From a virus (taxonomy: Duplodnaviria; Heunggongvirae; Uroviricota; Caudoviricetes), in IMG/VR virus record IMGVR_UViG_2778261417_000002: a DNA stretch of 5,734 bases. One strand, written 5' to 3'. A model generated the notes under the pieces. It did not search any database and was not told where the DNA came from. It was given only the letters and a program-made list of their open reading frames with translations. Positions 1 to 5,734 of the stretch are shown in pieces. How positions within the stretch are numbered: the stretch's first letter is position 1; each line of letters begins with the position of its first letter. A program made the position numbers and the translations under genes.

Positions 1-3000
1 GGGAATGATTTGGATACTGTTTTAACAAAATCGCCTCTGACCTGATTCGCCTCCAGCATGCCCTTAATCGTACAGTTCTCATTTATCGTGACGTTGTTTA
101 GCGTCCCGGAGTTAGCATTCACACTGCCACTGATATCCGCATTTTTCGCCGTCAGTCGCCCGTCCGGTGCCAGGGAAAATGCCGGAGGATTACCGCCGCT
201 GGTAATGGTGGGAGCCGTCAGATATTTCAGGAACACGTCATTCATGAATATCTGATCGCCCTGACCAACAAACATCGGTTTTGTGTTGCCATTCGCAGGA
301 TTAACCATCGCTATCCTGTCTGCCGCCAGCAGCACCTGACTCTGCATGCCGTCGGGGGTGTTCTCAATACCGGCACCGATACCCGCAATATAAAGGCGTC
401 CGTCCTGCATCTGCTGCAGCTTCACAGCCCACATGCTGTTCAGGTTATTATTTGTATCAACCTGAACCTTCTGTATCTGCTGAATTGCCGCACTCTGGTC
501 TTCCAGTTTCTTATTGACGGTCTGCGTGATTTCATTGCTGACATCCGTAATGGATGTCCTGATTTCAGCCAGGTCAGGCGCAAGCTGACCGTTATCAATC
601 TGCGTCCACAGCTCCTGAGCCAGATGGGTTTTCCCTATCTCGCCTTTGAAAAAATCCAGATAGCCGGATGCATCATCACTCGGCTGACCAACAGCCTCCA
701 CGAATGCCGATTTGCCAACGGTGTTCACACTGCGAACGTAAAAATAATAATCATGGCCCGGTTTGATATTGATACTGGCGGCTATCCAGTACAGCGCCGT
801 ACCAAGATAGCGGGCTGTGGTTTCAACCTGCCTGATATCGGTAATCCGCTTTTCCGAGAACCAGAACTCAAACTGTACCGTCGGGTCATAAACGGCAAGA
901 TGCGGCGTGGCGGTTATCTGAAAATAGCCCGGCGTCAGCTCAATCCGCGACGGCACTGCAGGTGCGGCAATCCGGAACGATACCGACGCCGGATCGCCCC
1001 GCTGCCCCCGGGCATTTACCGCCCGGACTGTCAGCCTGTAGTTCCCCAGCGCCAGTTGTGTGAAGCGGTAAGTGGTTTCCGTCGTCCGGGCCGTGCTGAC
1101 CAGCCGCTCACTGCCGTCATCCGCTGTTACGGTCAGACGGAGCAGGAAGCTCACCCCCTTCACCACCTTCGGCGTGTCCCAGCGCGCCAGCACCTGATAT
1201 TCCCCGCTGTCTGCGGTGACTTCGGCAGTCAGGTGCTGCACCGCTGGCGGCGTGACACCATTCACCGTGCCGCTCTGGTCGCCGTCAAAGTGCGCCCCGT
1301 TATCCACGATGGCCTCTTTTTCCGGTACATGCTGCACGGCGGTGATGGCATACGTGCCGTCGTCATTCTCACGGATACTCACGCAGCGGAACAGGCGCTG
1401 GCGCAGCGTCGGCAGCTTCAGTCCCCACACGCTGTATTCGGCAACGCCGTCAGGAACCCGGCTCACTTTCACCTTCACGCCGTCGGTGACGGACTGAACC
1501 TCCACGCTGACCGGATTGCCACTTCCGTCAACCAGGCTTATCAGCGTGGTACCGGAGGATGGCAGCGTGATTTCACGGTCGAGCGTCAGCGTCCGGGTCT
1601 GGCTGTTCACCGCCAGCACGCGCCCGCCGGTGCGGATACCGGCATAGTCATCATCGCAGATTTCAATGACATCGCCCGGTACATGGCGAAGCCCTTCGGC
1701 ACCCACGCTGAAGTCCACGGTCTGCGTTTCCAGCAGTTCTGTTTTAATCAGCCACAGCCCGGCGCGGTGCGCCTGCCCCCGGCTGGTACAGCCAAAGGCA
1801 TCCATCTTCGTGACATTACGACCGTAACGGGCAATGGCCTGCGTGTCCTCCACAAGCTCTGTTGCCGTTTCCCAGCCGTTATCCGGGTCAATCCAGTTCA
1901 CCTCAACGGCATTATGGCGGTCCTTCAGGGCGCTGAAACTGTAGCGGAACGGCGCGCCATCATCCGGCATCACCACATTACTGCGGTTATAGGTCCACAC
2001 CTTATCCGACGGCCGGTCCTGCACGAACGTCAGCGTCTGCCCGTTCCATACCGGCATACAGCGCATCGCCGAGCAGAAATCACTGAGCACATCCCACGCC
2101 TTGCGCTGCGTGGTCAGGTACGCATTACAGGTGATACGCGGTTCCGTGCCACCAAAGCCATCCGGCACCGACTGGTCGCAATTCTGGCCGATGACATACA
2201 GCGCCCATTTATCCACATCCGCCGCACCAAGACGTTTCCCCATGCCGTAGCGCGGATGGGTCAGCATATCCCACAGACACCAGGCCATGTTGTTGCTGTA
2301 TGCCGGTTTTAACGTTCCGTCCCAGATACCGCTGTATTGTCGCGTCTGCGGGTTATAGTTCGACGGCACCTGCAGAATGCGCCCGCGAAGATGATAATTA
2401 CGGCTCACCTGCTGGCTGCCGAACTGCTCCGAGTCCACCTGCACGCCGACCAGTGCCGTGTTCGGGTAGCACTGTTTCACATCGATGATTTCGGTGTATG
2501 ACGACCAGAGCGTTTTGTTCTGCAGCTGGTCTGTGGTGCTGTCCGGCGTCATCCTGCGCATCCGGATATTGAACGGGCGCGGCGGCAGGTTACCCACCAC
2601 CACCGAGGCCAGATACTGTGAGGTGGTTTTGCCTTTAATGGTGATGTCTTTTTCCGTCACCCAGCCACCGTTACGTTGTATCTGAACCAGCAGGCGGACT
2701 TCCGACGGATTCCTGTCCCCCTTTGAGGTGGTTTCCACCAGTGCCTGCACGCCGAAGGTAAAACGCAGTCGGTCAATGTTTGCCGACGTGATGGTCCGGG
2801 TGATCGGCGTGTCGTATTTCACTTCCGTACCCAGCACCGCCTCGGAGCCGGAGGATTCAAATCCCTCCGGCGGTGTCTGCTCCTGCTCACCGGCCCGGAA
2901 CACCACCGTGACGCCGGAGATGTTGGTATTCCCCTCAGTGTCCAGCACTGGCGTACTGTTCAGCAGCACGCTTTTTAATCCATCCACCGGACCTTCAACC

Positions 3001-3101
3001 GGCCCTTCGCTGATGGCATCGATCACACTCAGCAACTGCGTGGACTTCAGGTTGTCCTTCGCTTCGCGCGGAGTATGCCCCTTACTGCTGCCTTTACCCA
3101 T
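1..3101 (-). CDS. J: Host specificity / tail tip attachment protein J (central tail fibre), N-terminal ~1033 codons; 3' end of the gene lies beyond the window start
   Basis: Minus-strand ATG at 3101..3099 translates [17 protein letters not shown], which matches my recollection of the lambda gpJ N-terminus. The frame (codon low ends divisible by 3) is still open at 258..231, where it reads [10 protein letters not shown], also a remembered gpJ segment, and at 3..59 (...[11 protein letters not shown]). No other minus-strand ORF appears in the track across 1..3161, consistent with one long frame that runs off the window and so was not listed. GGAG lies 8 nt upstream of the ATG. Lambda gpJ is 1132 aa, so roughly 100 C-terminal codons are missing. 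Confidence 0.93.
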
Positions 3102-3111
3102 TCCTCACGCT

Positions 3112-3143
3112 CCATAAACGACAAAACCGCCCGGAGGCGGTTT
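3112..3143 (-). terminator. Terminator-like or attenuator-like hairpin in the I-J intergenic spacer
   Basis: Perfect inverted repeat aaaccgcc (3124..3131) / ggcggttt (3136..3143) with 4-nt loop cgga. On the coding (minus) strand it reads AAACCGCC-TCCG-GGCGGTTT followed by TGTCGTTTAT, a T-rich tail. It lies 12-40 nt upstream of the J start codon in the 60-nt I-J gap. Confidence 0.3.
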
Positions 3144-3161
3144 CACATAAAACGTTTTTCA

Positions 3162-3809
3162 TCAGCGACCAATCACCACAACCTGACCACCATCCCCTTC
3201 GTCTGCCGTGCTGATCTCCTGAGAGACCACCCGCGACCCCACGCGCATTTCACCGTACAGAACGGGCAGAACATTGCCCTGGGCAACCATGTTATCCAGT
3301 GACGAGAAATACGTGTTCTGTTTGCCGTTATCTGTACTGGCTGCCGTGGGCGTCCTGGCTTTCGGTGCCAACATCTGCGCCACACCGCCCAGGATCATAC
3401 TGGCCCCTGCCGCATACATACCCGATACAGCCGTGGCCCCCAGCCAGCCCACAGGGTTCCACCATGCAACCGCAATCAGCGCCGCCCCCAGCACTGCCTG
3501 AAAAATACCGCCACTTTTAGCACCCGCCGGACGCGGTACGATGTGGATCACGGCACCATTTTCCAGCGGCTCATTAAGACGGGCAGACAATTCAGTTTCA
3601 CCTGCATCACGCCCGGCAATGCGTACCTGGTACCAGCCGTCGCTCAGTTTCTGACGAAATGCCGGGATCTGCATGGCCAGCGCCCGGATGGCTTCGGACC
3701 CCGTTTTCACTCGAAGGTCGATGCGGCGGCCAAATCGTTGTAAATCCCCGTAAAGGCAGATGCGTGCCATGCCCGGTGACGCCAGAGGGAGTGTGTGCGT
3801 CGCTGCCAT
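3162..3809 (-). CDS. I: Tail assembly protein I (gpI), ubiquitin-like N-terminal domain followed by a hydrophobic Gly/Ala-rich segment
   Basis: 215-aa minus-strand ORF, MAATHTLPLASPGMARICLYGDLQRFGRR...GGQVVVIGR, in the position of lambda gene I (lambda gpI is 223 aa from memory). ATG at 3809 is preceded by GAGAGAGG; an in-frame stop at 3845..3843 excludes a longer N-terminus. Stop is TGA at 3164..3162. Sits between K and J as in lambda. Confidence 0.9.
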   Translation of the reverse strand: MAATHTLPLASPGMARICLYGDLQRFGRRIDLRVKTGSEAIRALAMQIPAFRQKLSDGWYQVRIAGRDAGETELSARLNEPLENGAVIHIVPRPAGAKSGGIFQAVLGAALIAVAWWNPVGWLGATAVSGMYAAGASMILGGVAQMLAPKARTPTAASTDNGKQNTYFSSLDNMVAQGNVLPVLYGEMRVGSRVVSQEISTADEGDGGQVVVIGR

Positions 3810-4450
3810 TTGTCGGTGTACCTCTCTCGTTTGCTCAGTTGTTCAGGAATATGGTGCAGCAGCTCGCCGTCGCCGCAGTAAATAGCGGCATGATTCGGCA
3901 CCGATGAACCAAAACAGCACAGCAGCACATCGCCCGGCTGCGCCGCTGACAACGGCACCTGATACAGCCCTGTGGCCTCCAGATTATCCAGATAGAGATT
4001 CTGACCGTTACGCCACCAGTTATCCCCGCGATGAAAATCCGGCATCTCAATTCCCGCCAGATGGTAAGCGTCCCGGAACAGCGTGTAACAGTCCGTCACC
4101 CCGTGCTCAAAGCGCCGCCCGGTGAGATGCGGCACACAGCGGAATTTATGAATCGCCCCCCGGCAGACCAGCCACCACGGCAAATCACTCTGTACCTGCA
4201 GCCGCCGGTCGGCCTCACTCAGCCAGGGCAGACCACCGGGGTGGCTGTGGACCAGCGCCACAATCTCTCCCTGCATTTCTGCACTCAGCCAGTCCTCCGG
4301 CGACATCCGGAAATACGCCTCCGGCTCACCGGAGATATTCACGCAGGGAAAATATCTTTCCTCCTCCGGCGTTCTCACCACGAAGCCGCACGACTCCGCT
4401 GGCGCACATCGCCGGGCGTGCGCCAGAATCGCTGATTCTGTCTCTGTCAT
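3707..4450 (-). CDS. K: Tail assembly protein K (gpK), JAB/MPN metallopeptidase-like domain plus NlpC/P60 (C40) peptidase-like domain
   Basis: 247-aa minus-strand ORF. JAMM motif HSHPGGLPWLSEAD (H-x-H-x7-S-xx-D) at residues 68-81, with an upstream E-x-C-G element (PAESCGFVV, E20). NlpC/P60-like Cys/His/His candidates at C121 (DCYTLF), H187 and H199. ATG at 4450 lies 5 nt after the L stop, suggesting translational coupling. An alternative internal start is Met49 (ATG 4306..4304) with GGAGG 11 nt upstream, which would give the 199-aa product that I recall the lambda reference annotating. The 3' end overlaps I by 103 nt in a different frame. Confidence 0.88.
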   Translation of the reverse strand: MTETESAILAHARRCAPAESCGFVVRTPEEERYFPCVNISGEPEAYFRMSPEDWLSAEMQGEIVALVHSHPGGLPWLSEADRRLQVQSDLPWWLVCRGAIHKFRCVPHLTGRRFEHGVTDCYTLFRDAYHLAGIEMPDFHRGDNWWRNGQNLYLDNLEATGLYQVPLSAAQPGDVLLCCFGSSVPNHAAIYCGDGELLHHIPEQLSKRERYTDKWQRRTHSLWRHRAWHASAFTGIYNDLAAASTFE

Positions 4451-4455
4451 GGGAT

Positions 4456-5154
4456 TTACTGCGAAAGTTTGTTAATGGAAAGGAAGCTGCCAAAGTTGCC
4501 GACATTATTGCGAAACTTACAGCCACTCAGGCATTTGCTGCATTTATCCTTCGTGATATCGGACGTCGGCTGGTCATATTCATCCGCGACCGCCGGACCG
4601 CTATAACCGCACTCATCGCCGCGATAGGTCCAGGTGCAGGTGTTGGCCAGCATGATACGTCCCGGAAAAACAGCGCCATCCGTTTCAGTCGGCGTGGACA
4701 GTACAAAAGAGGCACTGACCGCGCTCAGTTCGCTGCACTGCTCGATGCGCCAGCGGCTGATCACCTCCTGCTCCGGATCGGCTTCGCTGTTTCCGTTGAC
4801 GAAGTTCACCGCATCCAGAAAGCGGGCGTAAACCTTACGCCGGACCACCGTTCCGCCGACCAGACTCTGCAGATCTTCCGCCATCCCGGTGATCATGCCG
4901 TGCAGGTTAGAGACCGTCAGTGTCGGACGGGCAGCACTGCCCTTGCCGTTCATCTCAAATCCACTCCCCTGAATGGGATAGGCCTGATACTGCCGACTCT
5001 GCCAGGTGACAGACTCACCTTTTTCGTTCTGCTCATTACAGAAAAAGTAGCGATCCCCGCCTACCTCGGTCAGGTCGATTTCCCAGAGCACCACGCTGGC
5101 CGACTGCTCCGCACGAATGCATTCATTCAGCGTTTCCTGTTGTATGTCCTGCAT
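4456..5154 (-). CDS. L: Minor tail protein L (gpL), tail tip protein with C-terminal cysteine cluster (Fe-S binding in lambda gpL)
   Basis: 232-aa minus-strand ORF, MQDIQQETLNECIRAEQSASVVLWEIDLTEVGG...FLSINKLSQ, the same length as lambda gpL and closely matching my recollection of it. C-terminal cysteines C173, C182, C205, C208, C212. Start ATG overlaps the M stop as TGATG (5156..5152). Confidence 0.93.
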   Translation of the reverse strand: MQDIQQETLNECIRAEQSASVVLWEIDLTEVGGDRYFFCNEQNEKGESVTWQSRQYQAYPIQGSGFEMNGKGSAARPTLTVSNLHGMITGMAEDLQSLVGGTVVRRKVYARFLDAVNFVNGNSEADPEQEVISRWRIEQCSELSAVSASFVLSTPTETDGAVFPGRIMLANTCTWTYRGDECGYSGPAVADEYDQPTSDITKDKCSKCLSGCKFRNNVGNFGSFLSINKLSQ

Positions 5155-5492
5155 CAGATCACCACTTCGTCAAACTGACACGAAAAATCGGTATAGGTGA
5201 TATGTTCTGTCGCTGACCACGTTCGACACACCACTCTGATTTTTCTGTTAATACCCGGCGGGCGCCAAAAAAAAGATTTATAGCCTTCATGCCGGGCTAA
5301 AAATTTTTCAAATGAATCACGTTCATTCGCCTCAACTTTGAAATCACAGGTGAAAACGCGCAGAGAATGATTAAGTCCATTTGGACTTCGTTGCTCATAA
5401 CCATCGCCAAATCTTACAGTTTTTATCGATGGTTTATTTTCTGTTTTCATTCCATCCTCTGGTAACCAGTGAAATTCTTCCGTATTAGCCAC
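5154..5492 (-). CDS. M: Minor tail protein M (gpM), divergent from lambda gpM
   Basis: 112-aa minus-strand ORF starting at GTG 5492..5490: MANTEEFHWLPEDGMKTENKPSIKTVRFGDGYEQRSPNGL...KSFFWRPPG...QFDEVVI. It aligns colinearly with my recollection of lambda gpM (109 aa: ...FRWKVKPGMD...VRFGDGYSQRAPAGL...KSFLWTPP...EFEQVVN) at roughly 50% identity. The GTG start overlaps the H stop by 8 nt and has GGGGGA 7 nt upstream. An alternative start is ATG 5450..5448 (GAGGA 4-5 nt upstream), giving 98 aa. Stop TGA at 5156..5154. Confidence 0.8.
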   Translation of the reverse strand: MANTEEFHWLPEDGMKTENKPSIKTVRFGDGYEQRSPNGLNHSLRVFTCDFKVEANERDSFEKFLARHEGYKSFFWRPPGINRKIRVVCRTWSATEHITYTDFSCQFDEVVI

Positions 5493-5734
5493 TTAACATT
5501 CCCCCATCACGTCGCATATTTAACAGATTGCCCTGCACCCGCTGATCAACCATCCCCATAAGTGCTTTTATTGCCTGAGGGCCAATCTCTCCATTCTGGC
5601 CGTCATTTTGAATAGTGATTTGGTATACAGGGGCATAGGTAATATCTCCGCCTCCATGGTAATGGTGCCAACTTACTGATTTAGTGTATGATGGTGTTTT
5701 TGAGGTGCTCCCGTGGCTTCCATCTCCATCAGTT
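5485..5734 (-). CDS. H: Tail length tape measure protein H (gpH-like), C-terminal fragment; 5' end beyond the window end
   Basis: Minus-strand frame with codon low ends at 1 mod 3 is open from the window edge to TAA at 5487..5485. I translated it by hand as ...TDGDGSHGSTSKTPSYTKSVSWHHYHGGGDITYAPVYQITIQNDGQNGEIGPQAIKALMGMVDQRVQGNLLNMRRDGGMLSG*. The call rests mainly on synteny (immediately upstream of M, overlapping its start, as H is in lambda). I cannot confirm sequence similarity to lambda gpH from memory. Confidence 0.6.
   Translation of the reverse strand, partial: TDGDGSHGSTSKTPSYTKSVSWHHYHGGGDITYAPVYQITIQNDGQNGEIGPQAIKALMGMVDQRVQGNLLNMRRDGGMLSG

What the first reader, a model, noticed from the sequence alone, without database searches (positions are those of the whole stretch)
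3162..4450. K-I pair: a JAB/MPN plus NlpC/P60 double peptidase next to a ubiquitin-like protein, with a 103-nt out-of-frame overlap
K carries an intact JAMM metal-binding motif and a candidate Cys/His/His papain-like triad. I has a beta-grasp-like N-terminal region (ARICLYGDLQRFGRRIDLRVKTG...VIHIVP) and ends in a Gly-Gly-containing tail. This is the phage tail-assembly JAB/ubiquitin-like association described in comparative-genomics work on prokaryotic ubiquitin-like systems, and its biochemical role in tail-tip assembly is, to my knowledge, still poorly defined. The last 34 codons of K (3707..3809) are encoded on the same DNA as the first 34 codons of I in another frame, so the two are tightly constrained together. 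Not novel as a gene pair, but a tractable place to look for real proteolytic processing.
Basis: partly seen in the sequence, partly recalled or inferred. Interest (0 to 1): 0.5.

Follow-up and report, generated by a model that had tools for sequence, protein, structure and literature searches.

The report
Lambda-type tail-tip K peptidase and I
This is the well-known K-I gene pair of lambda-like phage tails: a non-structural double peptidase next to a tail-plug protein with a removable ubiquitin-like head. It is ordinary as a gene pair, although which enzyme removes the head has still not been shown.

Summary
The window is the minus-strand M-L-K-I-J tail-tip operon of a lambdoid (pro)phage, 96-97% identical to phage mEp460. 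K (3707-4450, 247 aa) has a Prok-JAB domain with an intact E19...H68-S-H70-x7-S78-x2-D81 motif, plus an NlpC/P60 domain with C121/H187/H199. I (3162-3809) has a MoaD/SAMP/Urm1-like beta-grasp N-domain. The ORFs overlap by 103 nt, with I in K's -1 frame.

First, the relevant Gly-Gly is G100-G101, directly after the beta-grasp in a family-wide P-x3-G-x-K-x-G-G-x-F motif. The C-terminal GDGG tail is lambda-group-specific and lies in the virion plug. Second, the overlap is not jointly constrained: I codons 1-13 evolve under K's frame and I codons 14-34 under I's frame. The long overlap is also lineage-specific (0-26 nt in HK97-, T1- and Burkholderia-type phages).

The pair, and the idea that K's JAB cuts I after the Ubl's last Gly, were published in 2006. 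Cryo-EM and mass spectrometry since then show only I's C-terminal plug in particles, and K absent. A 2026 F-pyocin preprint shows the N-domain is removed but does not identify the protease.

Verdict: already known, modest interest.

Side finding: the lambda reference annotates a truncated 199-aa K because one G is missing from its sequence.

The parts
3707..4450 (-). Gene K: non-structural tail-tip assembly protein, 247 aa, JAB/MPN+ domain followed by NlpC/P60. Its ATG lies 5 nt after the stop of L, with no Shine-Dalgarno sequence.
   Evidence: ORF; Pfam; 96-100% identical homologues annotated as tail tip assembly protein K; PHROG phrog_30.
4157..4441 (-). K JAB (Prok-JAB/MPN+) domain, residues 4-98. 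Catalytic Glu19 is at 4394-4396.
4208..4249 (-). JAMM metal-binding motif H68-S-H70-P-G-G-L-P-W-L-S78-E-A-D81.
   Evidence: Read directly from the sequence. It aligns with the HSH...S..D of solved JAMM1 and 2kks. In 121 diverse representatives H68 is kept in 117, H70 in 115, S78 in 112 and D81 in 117.
3779..4120 (-). K NlpC/P60 (C40) papain-like domain, residues 111-224. Cys121 is at 4088-4090, His187 at 3890-3892 and His199 at 3854-3856.
3707..3772 (-). Lambda-group-specific C-terminal tail of K (residues 227-247 plus stop), overprinted on I codons 14-34.
   Evidence: Distant homologues and the family profile end at about residue 225-233. K second codon positions vary at 13 of 21 sites here against 8 of 64 in K-only sequence, p = 2e-5.
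3707..3809 (-). K/I ORF overlap of 103 nt, with I in the -1 frame of K. There is no canonical slippery heptamer.
   Evidence: The overlap is identical in lambda and in about 100 loci.
3162..3809 (-). Gene I: tail-tip plug precursor, 215 aa from Met1. The alternative start Met14 is at 3768-3770.
   Evidence: ORF; Pfam Lambda_tail_I; E = 1e-105 to lambda gpI chains 8iyk/8k35/8xcg; PHROG phrog_32.
3534..3770 (-). I N-terminal ubiquitin-like beta-grasp domain, residues 14-92, of the MoaD/ThiS/SAMP/Urm1 type.
3501..3536 (-). Domain-boundary motif P92-R-P-A-G96-A-K98-S-G100-G101-I102-F103. The predicted scissile bond is G101|I102 (codons 3507-3509 | 3504-3506).
   Evidence: P92, G96, G101 and F103 are invariant, and K98 and G100 nearly so, across the lambda-group and T1-like clades. 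The motif is present in HK97, Burkholderia, Pseudomonas and Mannheimia I proteins and in the experimentally processed PA0640. The cleavage site itself is inferred.
3438..3506 (-). Hydrophobic, Gly/Ala-rich linker of I (residues 102-124), which the literature predicts to be membrane-active.
   Evidence: Sequence. Unresolved in cryo-EM. TM predictions are cited in PMC7291167 and PMC12617516.
3165..3437 (-). I C-terminal plug domain (residues 125-215), the part that stays in the virion as a trimer holding the C-terminus of the tape-measure protein.
   Evidence: E = 7e-44 to the 90-residue gpI chains of 9e7m. Lambda residues 134/135-223 are resolved.
4456..5154 (-). Gene L (tail-tip hub protein), operon context.
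   Evidence: Pfam Phage_tail_L, E = 7e-98.
5154..5492 (-). Gene M (distal tail protein), operon context.
   Evidence: Pfam Phage_min_tail, E = 1e-31.
1..3101 (-). Gene J (central tail fibre), 5' part, open to the left edge of the window (1033 codons, no stop).
   Evidence: annotations of related phages.

Best explanation
K and I form a protease-substrate pair that acts during assembly of the lambda-type tail tip.

I is made as a precursor with three parts: an N-terminal MoaD/SAMP-like ubiquitin-like domain (residues 14-92), a short tail ending in G100-G101, and then a hydrophobic linker followed by the plug domain.

K is a soluble, non-structural enzyme with two conserved active sites. Its JAB/JAMM zinc site recognises the Ub-like domain of I and cuts the peptide bond after G101. 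This is how archaeal JAMM1 and other JAB enzymes cut after the terminal Gly-Gly of their ubiquitin-like partners.

The released Ub-like domain and K leave the complex. The C-terminal fragment of I stays as the trimeric plug that holds the tape-measure C-terminus inside the tip. The Ub-like domain probably acts as a removable cis-chaperone or steric shield for the hydrophobic plug until the tip is built.

What is shown here: both folds, both intact and conserved active sites, the conserved boundary motif, and the conserved K-then-I gene order.

What is shown by others: only the C-terminal part of I is in particles. K is absent from particles but essential. The N-domain of the F-pyocin homologue is proteolytically removed.

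What is inferred: that K's JAB is the protease, that the cut is after G101, and what the NlpC/P60 site acts on.

The 103-nt overlap is an incidental, lambda-group-specific read-through of K into the start of I. It is not part of the mechanism.
For: Domains and motifs.
- Pfam domains and motifs.
- Both catalytic sets are kept in 112-117 of 121 representatives at a median 37% identity.
- I N-domain: beta-grasp of the GG-terminated MoaD/SAMP/Urm1 branch.
- The P-x3-G-x-K-x-G-G-x-F boundary motif is invariant or nearly so across clades, and present in PA0640.

Genomic context.
- JAB+NlpC/P60 K sits immediately upstream of I, or one inserted gene away, in six of the seven distant phages fetched (HK97, T1-like tiwna, Webervirus KLPN1, and Burkholderia, Pseudomonas and Mannheimia phages). 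All seven K proteins carry both domains. In the Vibrio phage, reverse-strand genes follow K and no I gene lies in the stretch fetched.

Literature.
- The prediction was made by Iyer et al. 2006.
- Lambda gpI is resolved only from residue 134/135, and gpK was not detected in virions.
- The single gpI peptide in lambda virion MS equals the C-terminal 22-mer.
- F-pyocin PA0640's N-terminal region is present in stalled precursors and absent from mature particles. Deleting PA0639 (the K homologue) gives tip-less tubes.
Against: - No experiment links K's JAB to the cleavage.
- PA0640 expressed alone in E. coli loses its N-terminal region to unknown host proteases, so a dedicated protease may not be needed.
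- My attempt to dock I's tail into K's JAB site with a natural K-I fusion gave pTM 0.33, so it is uninformative.
- The exact N-terminus of virion gpI is unknown. The resolved part starts about 33 residues after G101.
- The lambda MS evidence rests on a single peptide.
- The role of the equally conserved NlpC/P60 site is not explained.
Confidence: 0.6

Rival explanations
1. The N-domain of I is removed by a host protease or by K's NlpC/P60 cysteine site. K's JAB domain only binds the Ub-like domain, as a chaperone or adaptor, or has another substrate.
For: PA0640 expressed alone in E. coli is trimmed by unknown host proteases. The NlpC/P60 triad is as conserved as the JAMM site. Iyer et al. also allowed that NlpC/P60 might process I.
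Against: An inactive binding-only JAB would not keep E19, H68, H70, S78 and D81 in about 95% of diverse members. The conserved Gly-Gly directly after a MoaD/SAMP-type beta-grasp is the canonical JAB cleavage context.
Confidence: 0.15
2. K's JAB domain is mainly an anti-defence deubiquitinase. It strips bacterial Bil-type ubiquitin-like conjugates off the central tail fibre J. This is the speculation made in the Bil-system paper.
Against: Contigs encoding the exact I protein of the Bil-sensitive phage SECphi27 carry a JAB+NlpC/P60 K, so K does not prevent Bil defence there. K homologues are essential for tip assembly in lambda and in F-pyocin with no Bil system involved. In every locus where I was identified, K is paired with a cis-encoded Ub-like substrate carrying a conserved GG boundary.
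Confidence: 0.07
3. In the lambda group, I is not cleaved at all. The N-terminal domain stays attached but is flexible and invisible to cryo-EM, and K acts purely as an assembly chaperone.
For: The cryo-EM papers report only missing density, not cleavage. gpI is a low-copy protein, so missing MS peptides are weak evidence.
Against: Three copies of a roughly 100-residue domain plus linker would have to fit in or near the tip lumen. The homologous F-pyocin protein is demonstrably processed. The only gpI peptide detected in lambda virions is C-terminal, although six suitable N-terminal tryptic peptides exist. Conserved catalytic sites argue for enzymatic activity.
Confidence: 0.08
4. K's NlpC/P60 domain is a cell-wall (peptidoglycan) endopeptidase used at infection or lysis, like most members of that family.
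For: The closest solved folds for that half are peptidoglycan D,L-endopeptidases (CwlO, LytE, MepS) and a phage endolysin. RefSeq names K 'C40 family peptidase'.
Against: K is not detected in lambda virions or F-pyocin particles, so it cannot act at entry. It has no signal peptide or cell-wall-binding domain in the Pfam scan. Its loss blocks tip assembly, not lysis.
Confidence: 0.05
5. The long -1-frame overlap serves programmed ribosomal frameshifting that makes a K-I fusion protein, by analogy with lambda G/GT.
For: I is in the -1 frame of K. Databases hold K-I fusion proteins.
Against: There is no X_XXY_YYZ heptamer in K's frame. The fusions are singleton clusters with different junctions, typical of sequencing errors or pseudogenes. 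HK97 and Mannheimia phages separate K and I by 268-321 nt, and Burkholderia phages overlap by only 4 nt.
Confidence: 0.02

Closest known systems
Bacteriophage lambda gpK / gpI (tail tip assembly proteins K and I)
   Same: Same operon position (M-L-K-I-J), the same 103-nt overlap, K about 96% and I about 80% identical, and the same domains. The window is simply another member of this group.
   Different: The hydrophobic linker of I is 8 residues shorter than in lambda. The lambda reference annotates only 199 aa of K because one base is missing from its sequence.
P. aeruginosa F-pyocin PA0639 / PA0640 (bioRxiv 10.64898/2026.02.24.707460)
   Same: PA0640 aligns with I over residues 11-201, including the boundary motif (IRIVPLVIGSKQSG|LFQ). 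Only its C-terminal plug is in particles, and its N-terminal region is proteolytically removed. PA0639 is described as a gpK homologue, is essential and is absent from particles.
   Different: It is a tailocin, not a phage. The protease was not identified, and the authors do not discuss the JAB/Ub-like link. I did not examine PA0639's domains here.
Archaeal JAMM1 with SAMP ubiquitin-like modifiers (PDB 5ld9, 5lda)
   Different: SAMPs are free modifiers conjugated through an E1. [quoted passage not shown]
Bacterial Ubl-deubiquitinase pairs of defence systems (BilA/BilC, PDB 8tyy; CBASS Cap3, PDB 9ild)
   Different: Those are host immune systems with E1/E2 conjugation. K/I is a phage assembly module with no conjugation enzymes.
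Ubiquitin-ribosomal-protein fusion precursors of eukaryotes (my own knowledge, not tested here)
   Same: An N-terminal ubiquitin-type domain is fused in cis to a cargo protein and removed by a deubiquitinase after the terminal Gly-Gly. It acts as a transient chaperone during assembly of a large complex.
   Different: Different kingdom. Cysteine DUBs are mostly used there, and there is no sequence relationship beyond the fold.

Membership tests
JAB/MPN+ (JAMM) metallopeptidases | Sequence match to the family model above its curated threshold | tested here: met
   Pfam PF14464 Prok-JAB, 52.8 bits against a cut-off of 25, residues 4-98. PDB sequence hits 2kks (E = 2e-5/2e-6), 2kcq and JAMM1.
JAB/MPN+ (JAMM) metallopeptidases | Complete E-x(n)-H-S/T-H-x7-S-x2-D motif (MPN+, not a degenerate MPN-) | tested here: met
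   E19, H68-S-H70, S78 and D81 are present. They are kept in 112-117 of 121 diverse family representatives.
JAB/MPN+ (JAMM) metallopeptidases | JAB fold | tested here: met
JAB/MPN+ (JAMM) metallopeptidases | Zinc binding and peptidase or isopeptidase activity | not testable with these tools
   Needs purified protein. No model coordinates were available to measure site geometry.
NlpC/P60 (MEROPS C40) papain-like peptidases | Sequence match to the family model above its curated threshold | tested here: met
   Pfam PF00877, 47.6 bits against a cut-off of 23, profile positions 1-105 of 105.
NlpC/P60 (MEROPS C40) papain-like peptidases | Catalytic Cys plus His plus a third polar residue (His) | tested here: met
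   C121 (D-C-Y-T), H187 (N-H-A-A-I-Y) and H199 are kept in 116, 117 and 117 of 121 representatives. Their identity with catalytic residues of solved enzymes is inferred from the Pfam match, not from a significant pairwise alignment (PDB sequence hits only E = 0.3-0.9).
NlpC/P60 (MEROPS C40) papain-like peptidases | Papain-like alpha+beta fold | tested here: met
NlpC/P60 (MEROPS C40) papain-like peptidases | Peptidoglycan or other amidase/peptidase activity and its substrate | not testable with these tools
   The substrate is unknown. K is absent from particles according to the literature.
Lambda_tail_I / TAPI (tail-tip plug protein gpI) | Sequence membership, with a C-terminal domain homologous to the structurally defined plug | tested here: met
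   Pfam PF06805, 88.4 bits against a cut-off of 23.8. E = 1e-105 to lambda gpI and E = 7e-44 to the resolved 90-residue plug chains.
Ubiquitin-like beta-grasp proteins, ThiS/MoaD/SAMP/Urm1 branch | Beta-grasp fold | tested here: met
Ubiquitin-like beta-grasp proteins, ThiS/MoaD/SAMP/Urm1 branch | Conserved Gly(-Gly) ending the domain's C-terminal tail | tested here: met
   G101 is invariant and G100 nearly so, 9 residues after the last strand. Here the Gly-Gly is internal because the domain is fused to cargo.
Ubiquitin-like conjugation systems (E1/E2-dependent) | E1-like adenylating enzyme and/or E2 encoded with the Ubl | tested here: not met
   The operon holds only H, M, L, K, I and J. I therefore do not file it as a conjugation system, only as a Ubl-fusion plus JAB processing pair.
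Programmed -1 frameshift gene pairs (lambda G/GT type) | Slippery heptamer in the upstream frame within the overlap, and a conserved fusion product | tested here: not met
   No X_XXY_YYZ site. Fusion proteins are singletons with differing junctions. The overlap is absent in HK97 and Mannheimia phages.

The most novel reading that the evidence does not exclude
K could be the single maturation protease of lambda-type tails, with two substrates. Its JAB site would remove the ubiquitin-like head of I (the 'proteolytic checkpoint' seen in F-pyocin). Its equally conserved NlpC/P60 cysteine site would perform the other unexplained cut in tail assembly, gpH to gpH* in the Gly-rich region of the tape measure. 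The 2025 Ur-lambda paper says the enzyme for that cut is unknown.
Probability: 0.1. Interest if true: 0.6.

Novelty: already known. Interest (0 to 1): 0.25.

Why it matters
The gene pair is textbook lambda. Its JAB/ubiquitin-like reading and the cleavage hypothesis date from 2006, so this window adds no new kind of system.

What makes the locus mildly worthwhile is timing. Cryo-EM and proteomics now show that only the plug half of I survives in particles. The F-pyocin work names a 'proteolytic checkpoint' whose protease is unidentified. The bacterial-ubiquitin field openly asks what phage tail DUB domains do. A simple K/I co-expression experiment with active-site mutants would answer a question about K that goes back to the classic lambda tail-assembly genetics, and it would give a minimal, E1/E2-free Ubl-DUB pair.

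Practically, people working on lambda should know that the reference K annotation (199 aa) lacks the first third of the JAB domain, including the catalytic Glu. Constructs based on that annotation would be JAB-dead.

Tried and rejected
1. K-I docking. I modelled a natural K-to-I fusion (P0037) to see whether I's GG tail enters the JAB site. The first alignment (A4) was mis-registered by MAFFT. The corrected one (A5) gave a model with pTM 0.33 and low confidence outside the JAB domain. I draw no inter-domain conclusion from it.
2. Programmed -1 frameshifting in the overlap. Rejected: there is no slippery site, the database fusions are singleton artefacts, and the overlap is not conserved at distance.
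3. A JAB-less K fused to I (P0256) as a counter-example to JAB-Ubl coupling. It is a gene call truncated inside the NlpC/P60 profile.
4. An I-like G-x-K-x-G-G motif in lambda gpH, to link K to the gpH* cleavage. None was found; there are only generic GG dipeptides in residues 700-745.
5. Rfam scan of the window: no hits. The consensus promoter/terminator scan found no more sites than shuffled sequence gives.
6. Literature searches for gpK together with JAB/JAMM/MPN, and for the 14266/14267 discrepancy. Nothing was found beyond Iyer 2006 and the Bil preprint's one-sentence speculation.
7. Peptide-level MS data for lambda gpI are not in the held supplements. Only the summary line was available.
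8. Significant pairwise sequence alignment of K's NlpC/P60 half to a solved enzyme was not obtained (E = 0.3-0.9). Fold comparison was used instead.
Full report
WHAT THE WINDOW IS. All long ORFs with database support lie on the minus strand. They form the tail-tip operon of a lambdoid phage:
- the end of H;
- M (5154-5492);
- L (4456-5154);
- K (3707-4450);
- I (3162-3809);
- a hairpin;
- J from 3101 to the left edge.

The K-I segment is 96-97% identical to phage mEp460 and over 90% identical to more than 100 phage records. In those records the genes are annotated as tail tip assembly proteins K and I, flanked by L and J. IMG/VR prophage contigs encode proteins 100% identical to both K and I.

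CHECK OF THE OBSERVATION. The coordinates and numbers are right. K is 247 aa and I is 215 aa. The ORFs share 3707-3809 (103 nt), and I is in the -1 frame of K.

K matches Pfam Prok-JAB (residues 4-98) and NLPC_P60 (residues 111-224, whole profile), both well above the curated thresholds. The JAMM motif is intact: E19, then H68-S-H70-x7-S78-x2-D81. The papain-like candidates are C121, H187 and H199/H200.

I matches Pfam Lambda_tail_I at residues 14-97. Lambda itself has exactly the same 103-nt overlap, K 14276-14875 and I 14773-15444.

ARE THE ACTIVE SITES REAL? An exhaustive profile search found 535 cluster representatives at E <= 1e-30 and 2205 at E <= 1e-10. I examined 121 full-length representatives with a median 37% identity to the window's K.

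| Residue | Conserved in (of 121) |
|---|---|
| E19 | 114 |
| H68 | 117 |
| H70 | 115 |
| S78 | 112 (plus 6 Thr) |
| D81 | 117 |
| C121 | 116 |
| H187 | 117 |
| H199 | 117 |

Both sites are therefore under strong purifying selection. That argues for two working enzymes, not degenerate scaffolds.

FIRST CORRECTION: WHICH GLY-GLY MATTERS. I aligned I proteins from lambda, mEp010, HK97, a T1-like phage (tiwna), a Webervirus (KLPN1), and Burkholderia, Pseudomonas and Mannheimia phages. The C-terminal '...GDGGQVVVIGR' exists only in the lambda group. Most of the others end at '...ED-x-x', and the mEp010 and Mannheimia proteins end in other unrelated tails. That segment is also part of the plug resolved in virions.

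The conserved feature is P92-x3-G96-x-K98-x-G100-G101-x-F103, directly after the last beta-strand. P92, G96, G101 and F103 are invariant, and K98 and G100 nearly so, across 66 sequences from two clades. The F-pyocin protein PA0640 has the same motif, IRIVPLVIGSKQSG|LFQ. [quoted passage not shown] 2006.

SECOND CORRECTION: THE OVERLAP IS NOT A JOINT CONSTRAINT. I compared 75 distinct haplotypes from related loci by codon position.
- K-only sequence varies mainly at K third positions, and I-only sequence at I third positions, as expected.
- I codons 1-13: variation follows K's frame. K third positions vary at 10 of 13 sites. I third positions vary at only 2 of 13, against 61 of 66 in I-only sequence (p = 3e-8).
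- I codons 14-34: variation follows I's frame. K second positions vary at 13 of 21 sites, against 8 of 64 in K-only sequence (p = 2e-5).

So each stretch is effectively constrained by one gene only. Three other results agree with this:
- the family profile and distant homologues of K stop at about residue 225-233;
- the PHROG and Pfam models of I start at residues 12-14;
- residues 1-13 of I are predicted disordered.

The upstream ATG of I is created by K's invariant Lys-Trp codons (AAA TGG), so its conservation says nothing about its use. Which start is used remains open:
- Budvicia, Limnobaculum and mEp010 loci have a stop codon just upstream of the Met14 equivalent, so they must start there.
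- E. albertii-type and Edwardsiella anguillarum loci have Leu at codon 14, so they must use the upstream ATG.

Across phage groups the overlap varies.

| Phage group | K/I overlap |
|---|---|
| Lambda group | 103 nt (106 nt in Edwardsiella piscicida) |
| Budvicia/Chania/mEp010 | 58-73 nt |
| T1-like and Webervirus | 20-26 nt |
| Burkholderia phage | 4 nt |
| HK97 | none (321-nt gap) |
| Mannheimia phage | none (268-nt gap) |

In the two phages with no overlap, the gap holds a terminator or an inserted gene. The long overlap is therefore a lineage-specific read-through of K into I, not a feature of the mechanism. Frameshifting is also unlikely. There is no slippery heptamer, and the K-I fusion proteins in databases are singletons with different junctions.

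WHAT IS KNOWN.
- Iyer, Burroughs and Aravind 2006 described TAPI (Ub-like N-domain, Gly-rich linker, C-domain) next to TAPK (JAB + NlpC/P60). They proposed that JAB releases the Ub-like domain by cutting at its last glycine.
- Lambda cryo-EM resolves only gpI 134/135-223, as a trimeric plug holding the C-terminus of gpH. MS did not find gpK in virions.
- In that MS table gpI has one unique peptide at 9.87% coverage, which is 22 of 223 residues. The only 22-residue tryptic peptide of gpI is the C-terminal one (202-223), and six suitable N-domain peptides were not reported. This is weak evidence, but it is consistent with loss of the N-domain.
[quoted passage not shown] Deleting the gpK homologue PA0639 gives tip-less tubes, PA0639 is absent from particles, and the cleavage mechanism is unknown. 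The paper never mentions JAB or ubiquitin.
- The Bil-system paper notes that the function of phage tail-assembly DUB domains is not understood, and speculates about counter-defence.

MOST LIKELY MECHANISM. I is a precursor whose Ub-like head shields or chaperones the hydrophobic plug half. K's JAB site recognises the head and cuts after G101. K and the head then leave, and the plug stays.
- Shown here: the folds, the active sites, the boundary motif and the conserved gene order.
- Shown by others: the particle composition and the processing in F-pyocin.
- Inferred: the identity of the protease and the exact cut site.

I put this at about 0.6. The main rivals are:
- a host protease or the NlpC/P60 site does the cutting (0.15);
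- there is no cleavage in lambda (0.08);
- the JAB is anti-Bil counter-defence (0.07), weakened because contigs with the exact I protein of the Bil-sensitive SECphi27 carry a JAB-bearing K;
- K acts as a peptidoglycan hydrolase (0.05);
- K-I frameshift fusion (0.02).

The substrate of the NlpC/P60 site is unexplained. A link to the unexplained gpH to gpH* cut is possible, but nothing here supports it.

SIDE FINDING. The lambda reference (NC_001416) annotates K as 199 aa. It reads CCGGAGGC-TATTTCCG at coordinate 14267, where the window and all relatives have an extra G. The 47 codons upstream are conserved but out of frame.

Thirteen lambda contigs assembled as contaminants in unrelated bacterial genomes match the reference with zero mismatches and exactly one gap over up to 2500 nt. 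A fourteenth (L010) has two mismatches and the same single gap. In the seven contigs I checked base by base the gap is at coordinate 14267. All of them that include the start of K carry an intact 247-aa K that starts 5 nt after the stop of L.

The 2022 Lambda imm21 record contains the intact ORF but still annotates only 199 aa. So lambda K as resequenced has a full JAB domain including Glu19. Work based on the 199-aa annotation (for example HHpred on '199 residues') misses it. I found no paper in the held library that notes this. It may be documented elsewhere.

VERDICT. As a system it is already known. Interest is modest (0.25). The window is an ordinary lambdoid prophage copy of a textbook locus, although the biochemical question it points to is real, timely and easy to test.

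Noticed in passing
L001 position 1268 (lambda NC_001416 coordinate 14267); corresponds to window ~4310: The lambda reference lacks one G present in the window and in 14 independently assembled lambda contigs (13 otherwise identical to the reference, one with two mismatches). This puts the first 47 codons of K out of frame, so K is annotated as 199 aa ('C40 family peptidase') without the N-terminal third of its JAB domain and the catalytic Glu. Lambda imm21 (OM418625) has the intact 247-aa ORF but copies the short annotation.
   Followed up: yes
L005, L007-L016, L018, L023, L025, L027, L028 and others (genome-contig hits): Genome assemblies of unrelated bacteria (Neobacillus, Pseudomonas, Shewanella, Chromatium, Enterococcus, Bradyrhizobium, Streptomyces-type and others) contain low-coverage contigs identical to phage lambda, some about 48.4 kb long. 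These are almost certainly spike-in or reagent contamination and not real prophages.
   Followed up: partly
window 3124-3143 (-), between I stop (3162) and J start (3101): There is a stable GC-rich hairpin, AAACCGCC-UCCG-GGCGGUUU, followed by UUGUCGUUU. In its 66-nt context it folds at -22.9 kcal/mol with z = -3.8. It is terminator-like and sits inside the late operon. One related phage record (Ayreon) lists a 'terminator' among the features under the 3100-4500 match. The simple terminator scan did not list it.
   Followed up: partly
window 4448-4458 (-): K's ATG lies 5 nt after L's TAA with no Shine-Dalgarno sequence (TAAATCCCATG), which suggests translational coupling of K to L. In the lambda reference annotation the same junction appears as an odd 148-nt untranslated gap.
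   Followed up: partly
P0014, P0037, P0066, P0092, P0117, P0145 and similar database proteins: Public protein sets contain K-I (and L-K) fusion 'proteins' from lambdoid prophages. Each is a singleton or near-singleton cluster with a different junction or frameshifted stretches, so they are most likely sequencing errors or decaying prophages.
   Followed up: partly
window 624-2312 (+): A 562-aa ORF runs antisense to J. Its Arg/His/Pro-rich translation has no PHROG match, so it is probably a spurious antisense ORF in a GC-rich gene.
   Followed up: partly
L127 (HK97), L128 (Mannheimia phage), L133 (Vibrio phage), L134 (Pseudomonas phage): In several distant phages the K-I junction is a site of gene insertion: a moron or terminator in HK97, a 41-aa ORF plus terminator in the Mannheimia phage, reverse-strand genes in the Vibrio phage, and two small ORFs in Pseudomonas phage 5400. 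K and I therefore do not need to be translationally linked.
   Followed up: no
window 5485-5734 (-) and L136: The tape-measure protein ends ...RRDGGMLSG in the window and ...RDGGLFSGGGR in lambda. This GG-hydrophobic-hydrophobic ending superficially resembles I's KSGG-IF boundary. It is too short to mean anything on its own.
   Followed up: no
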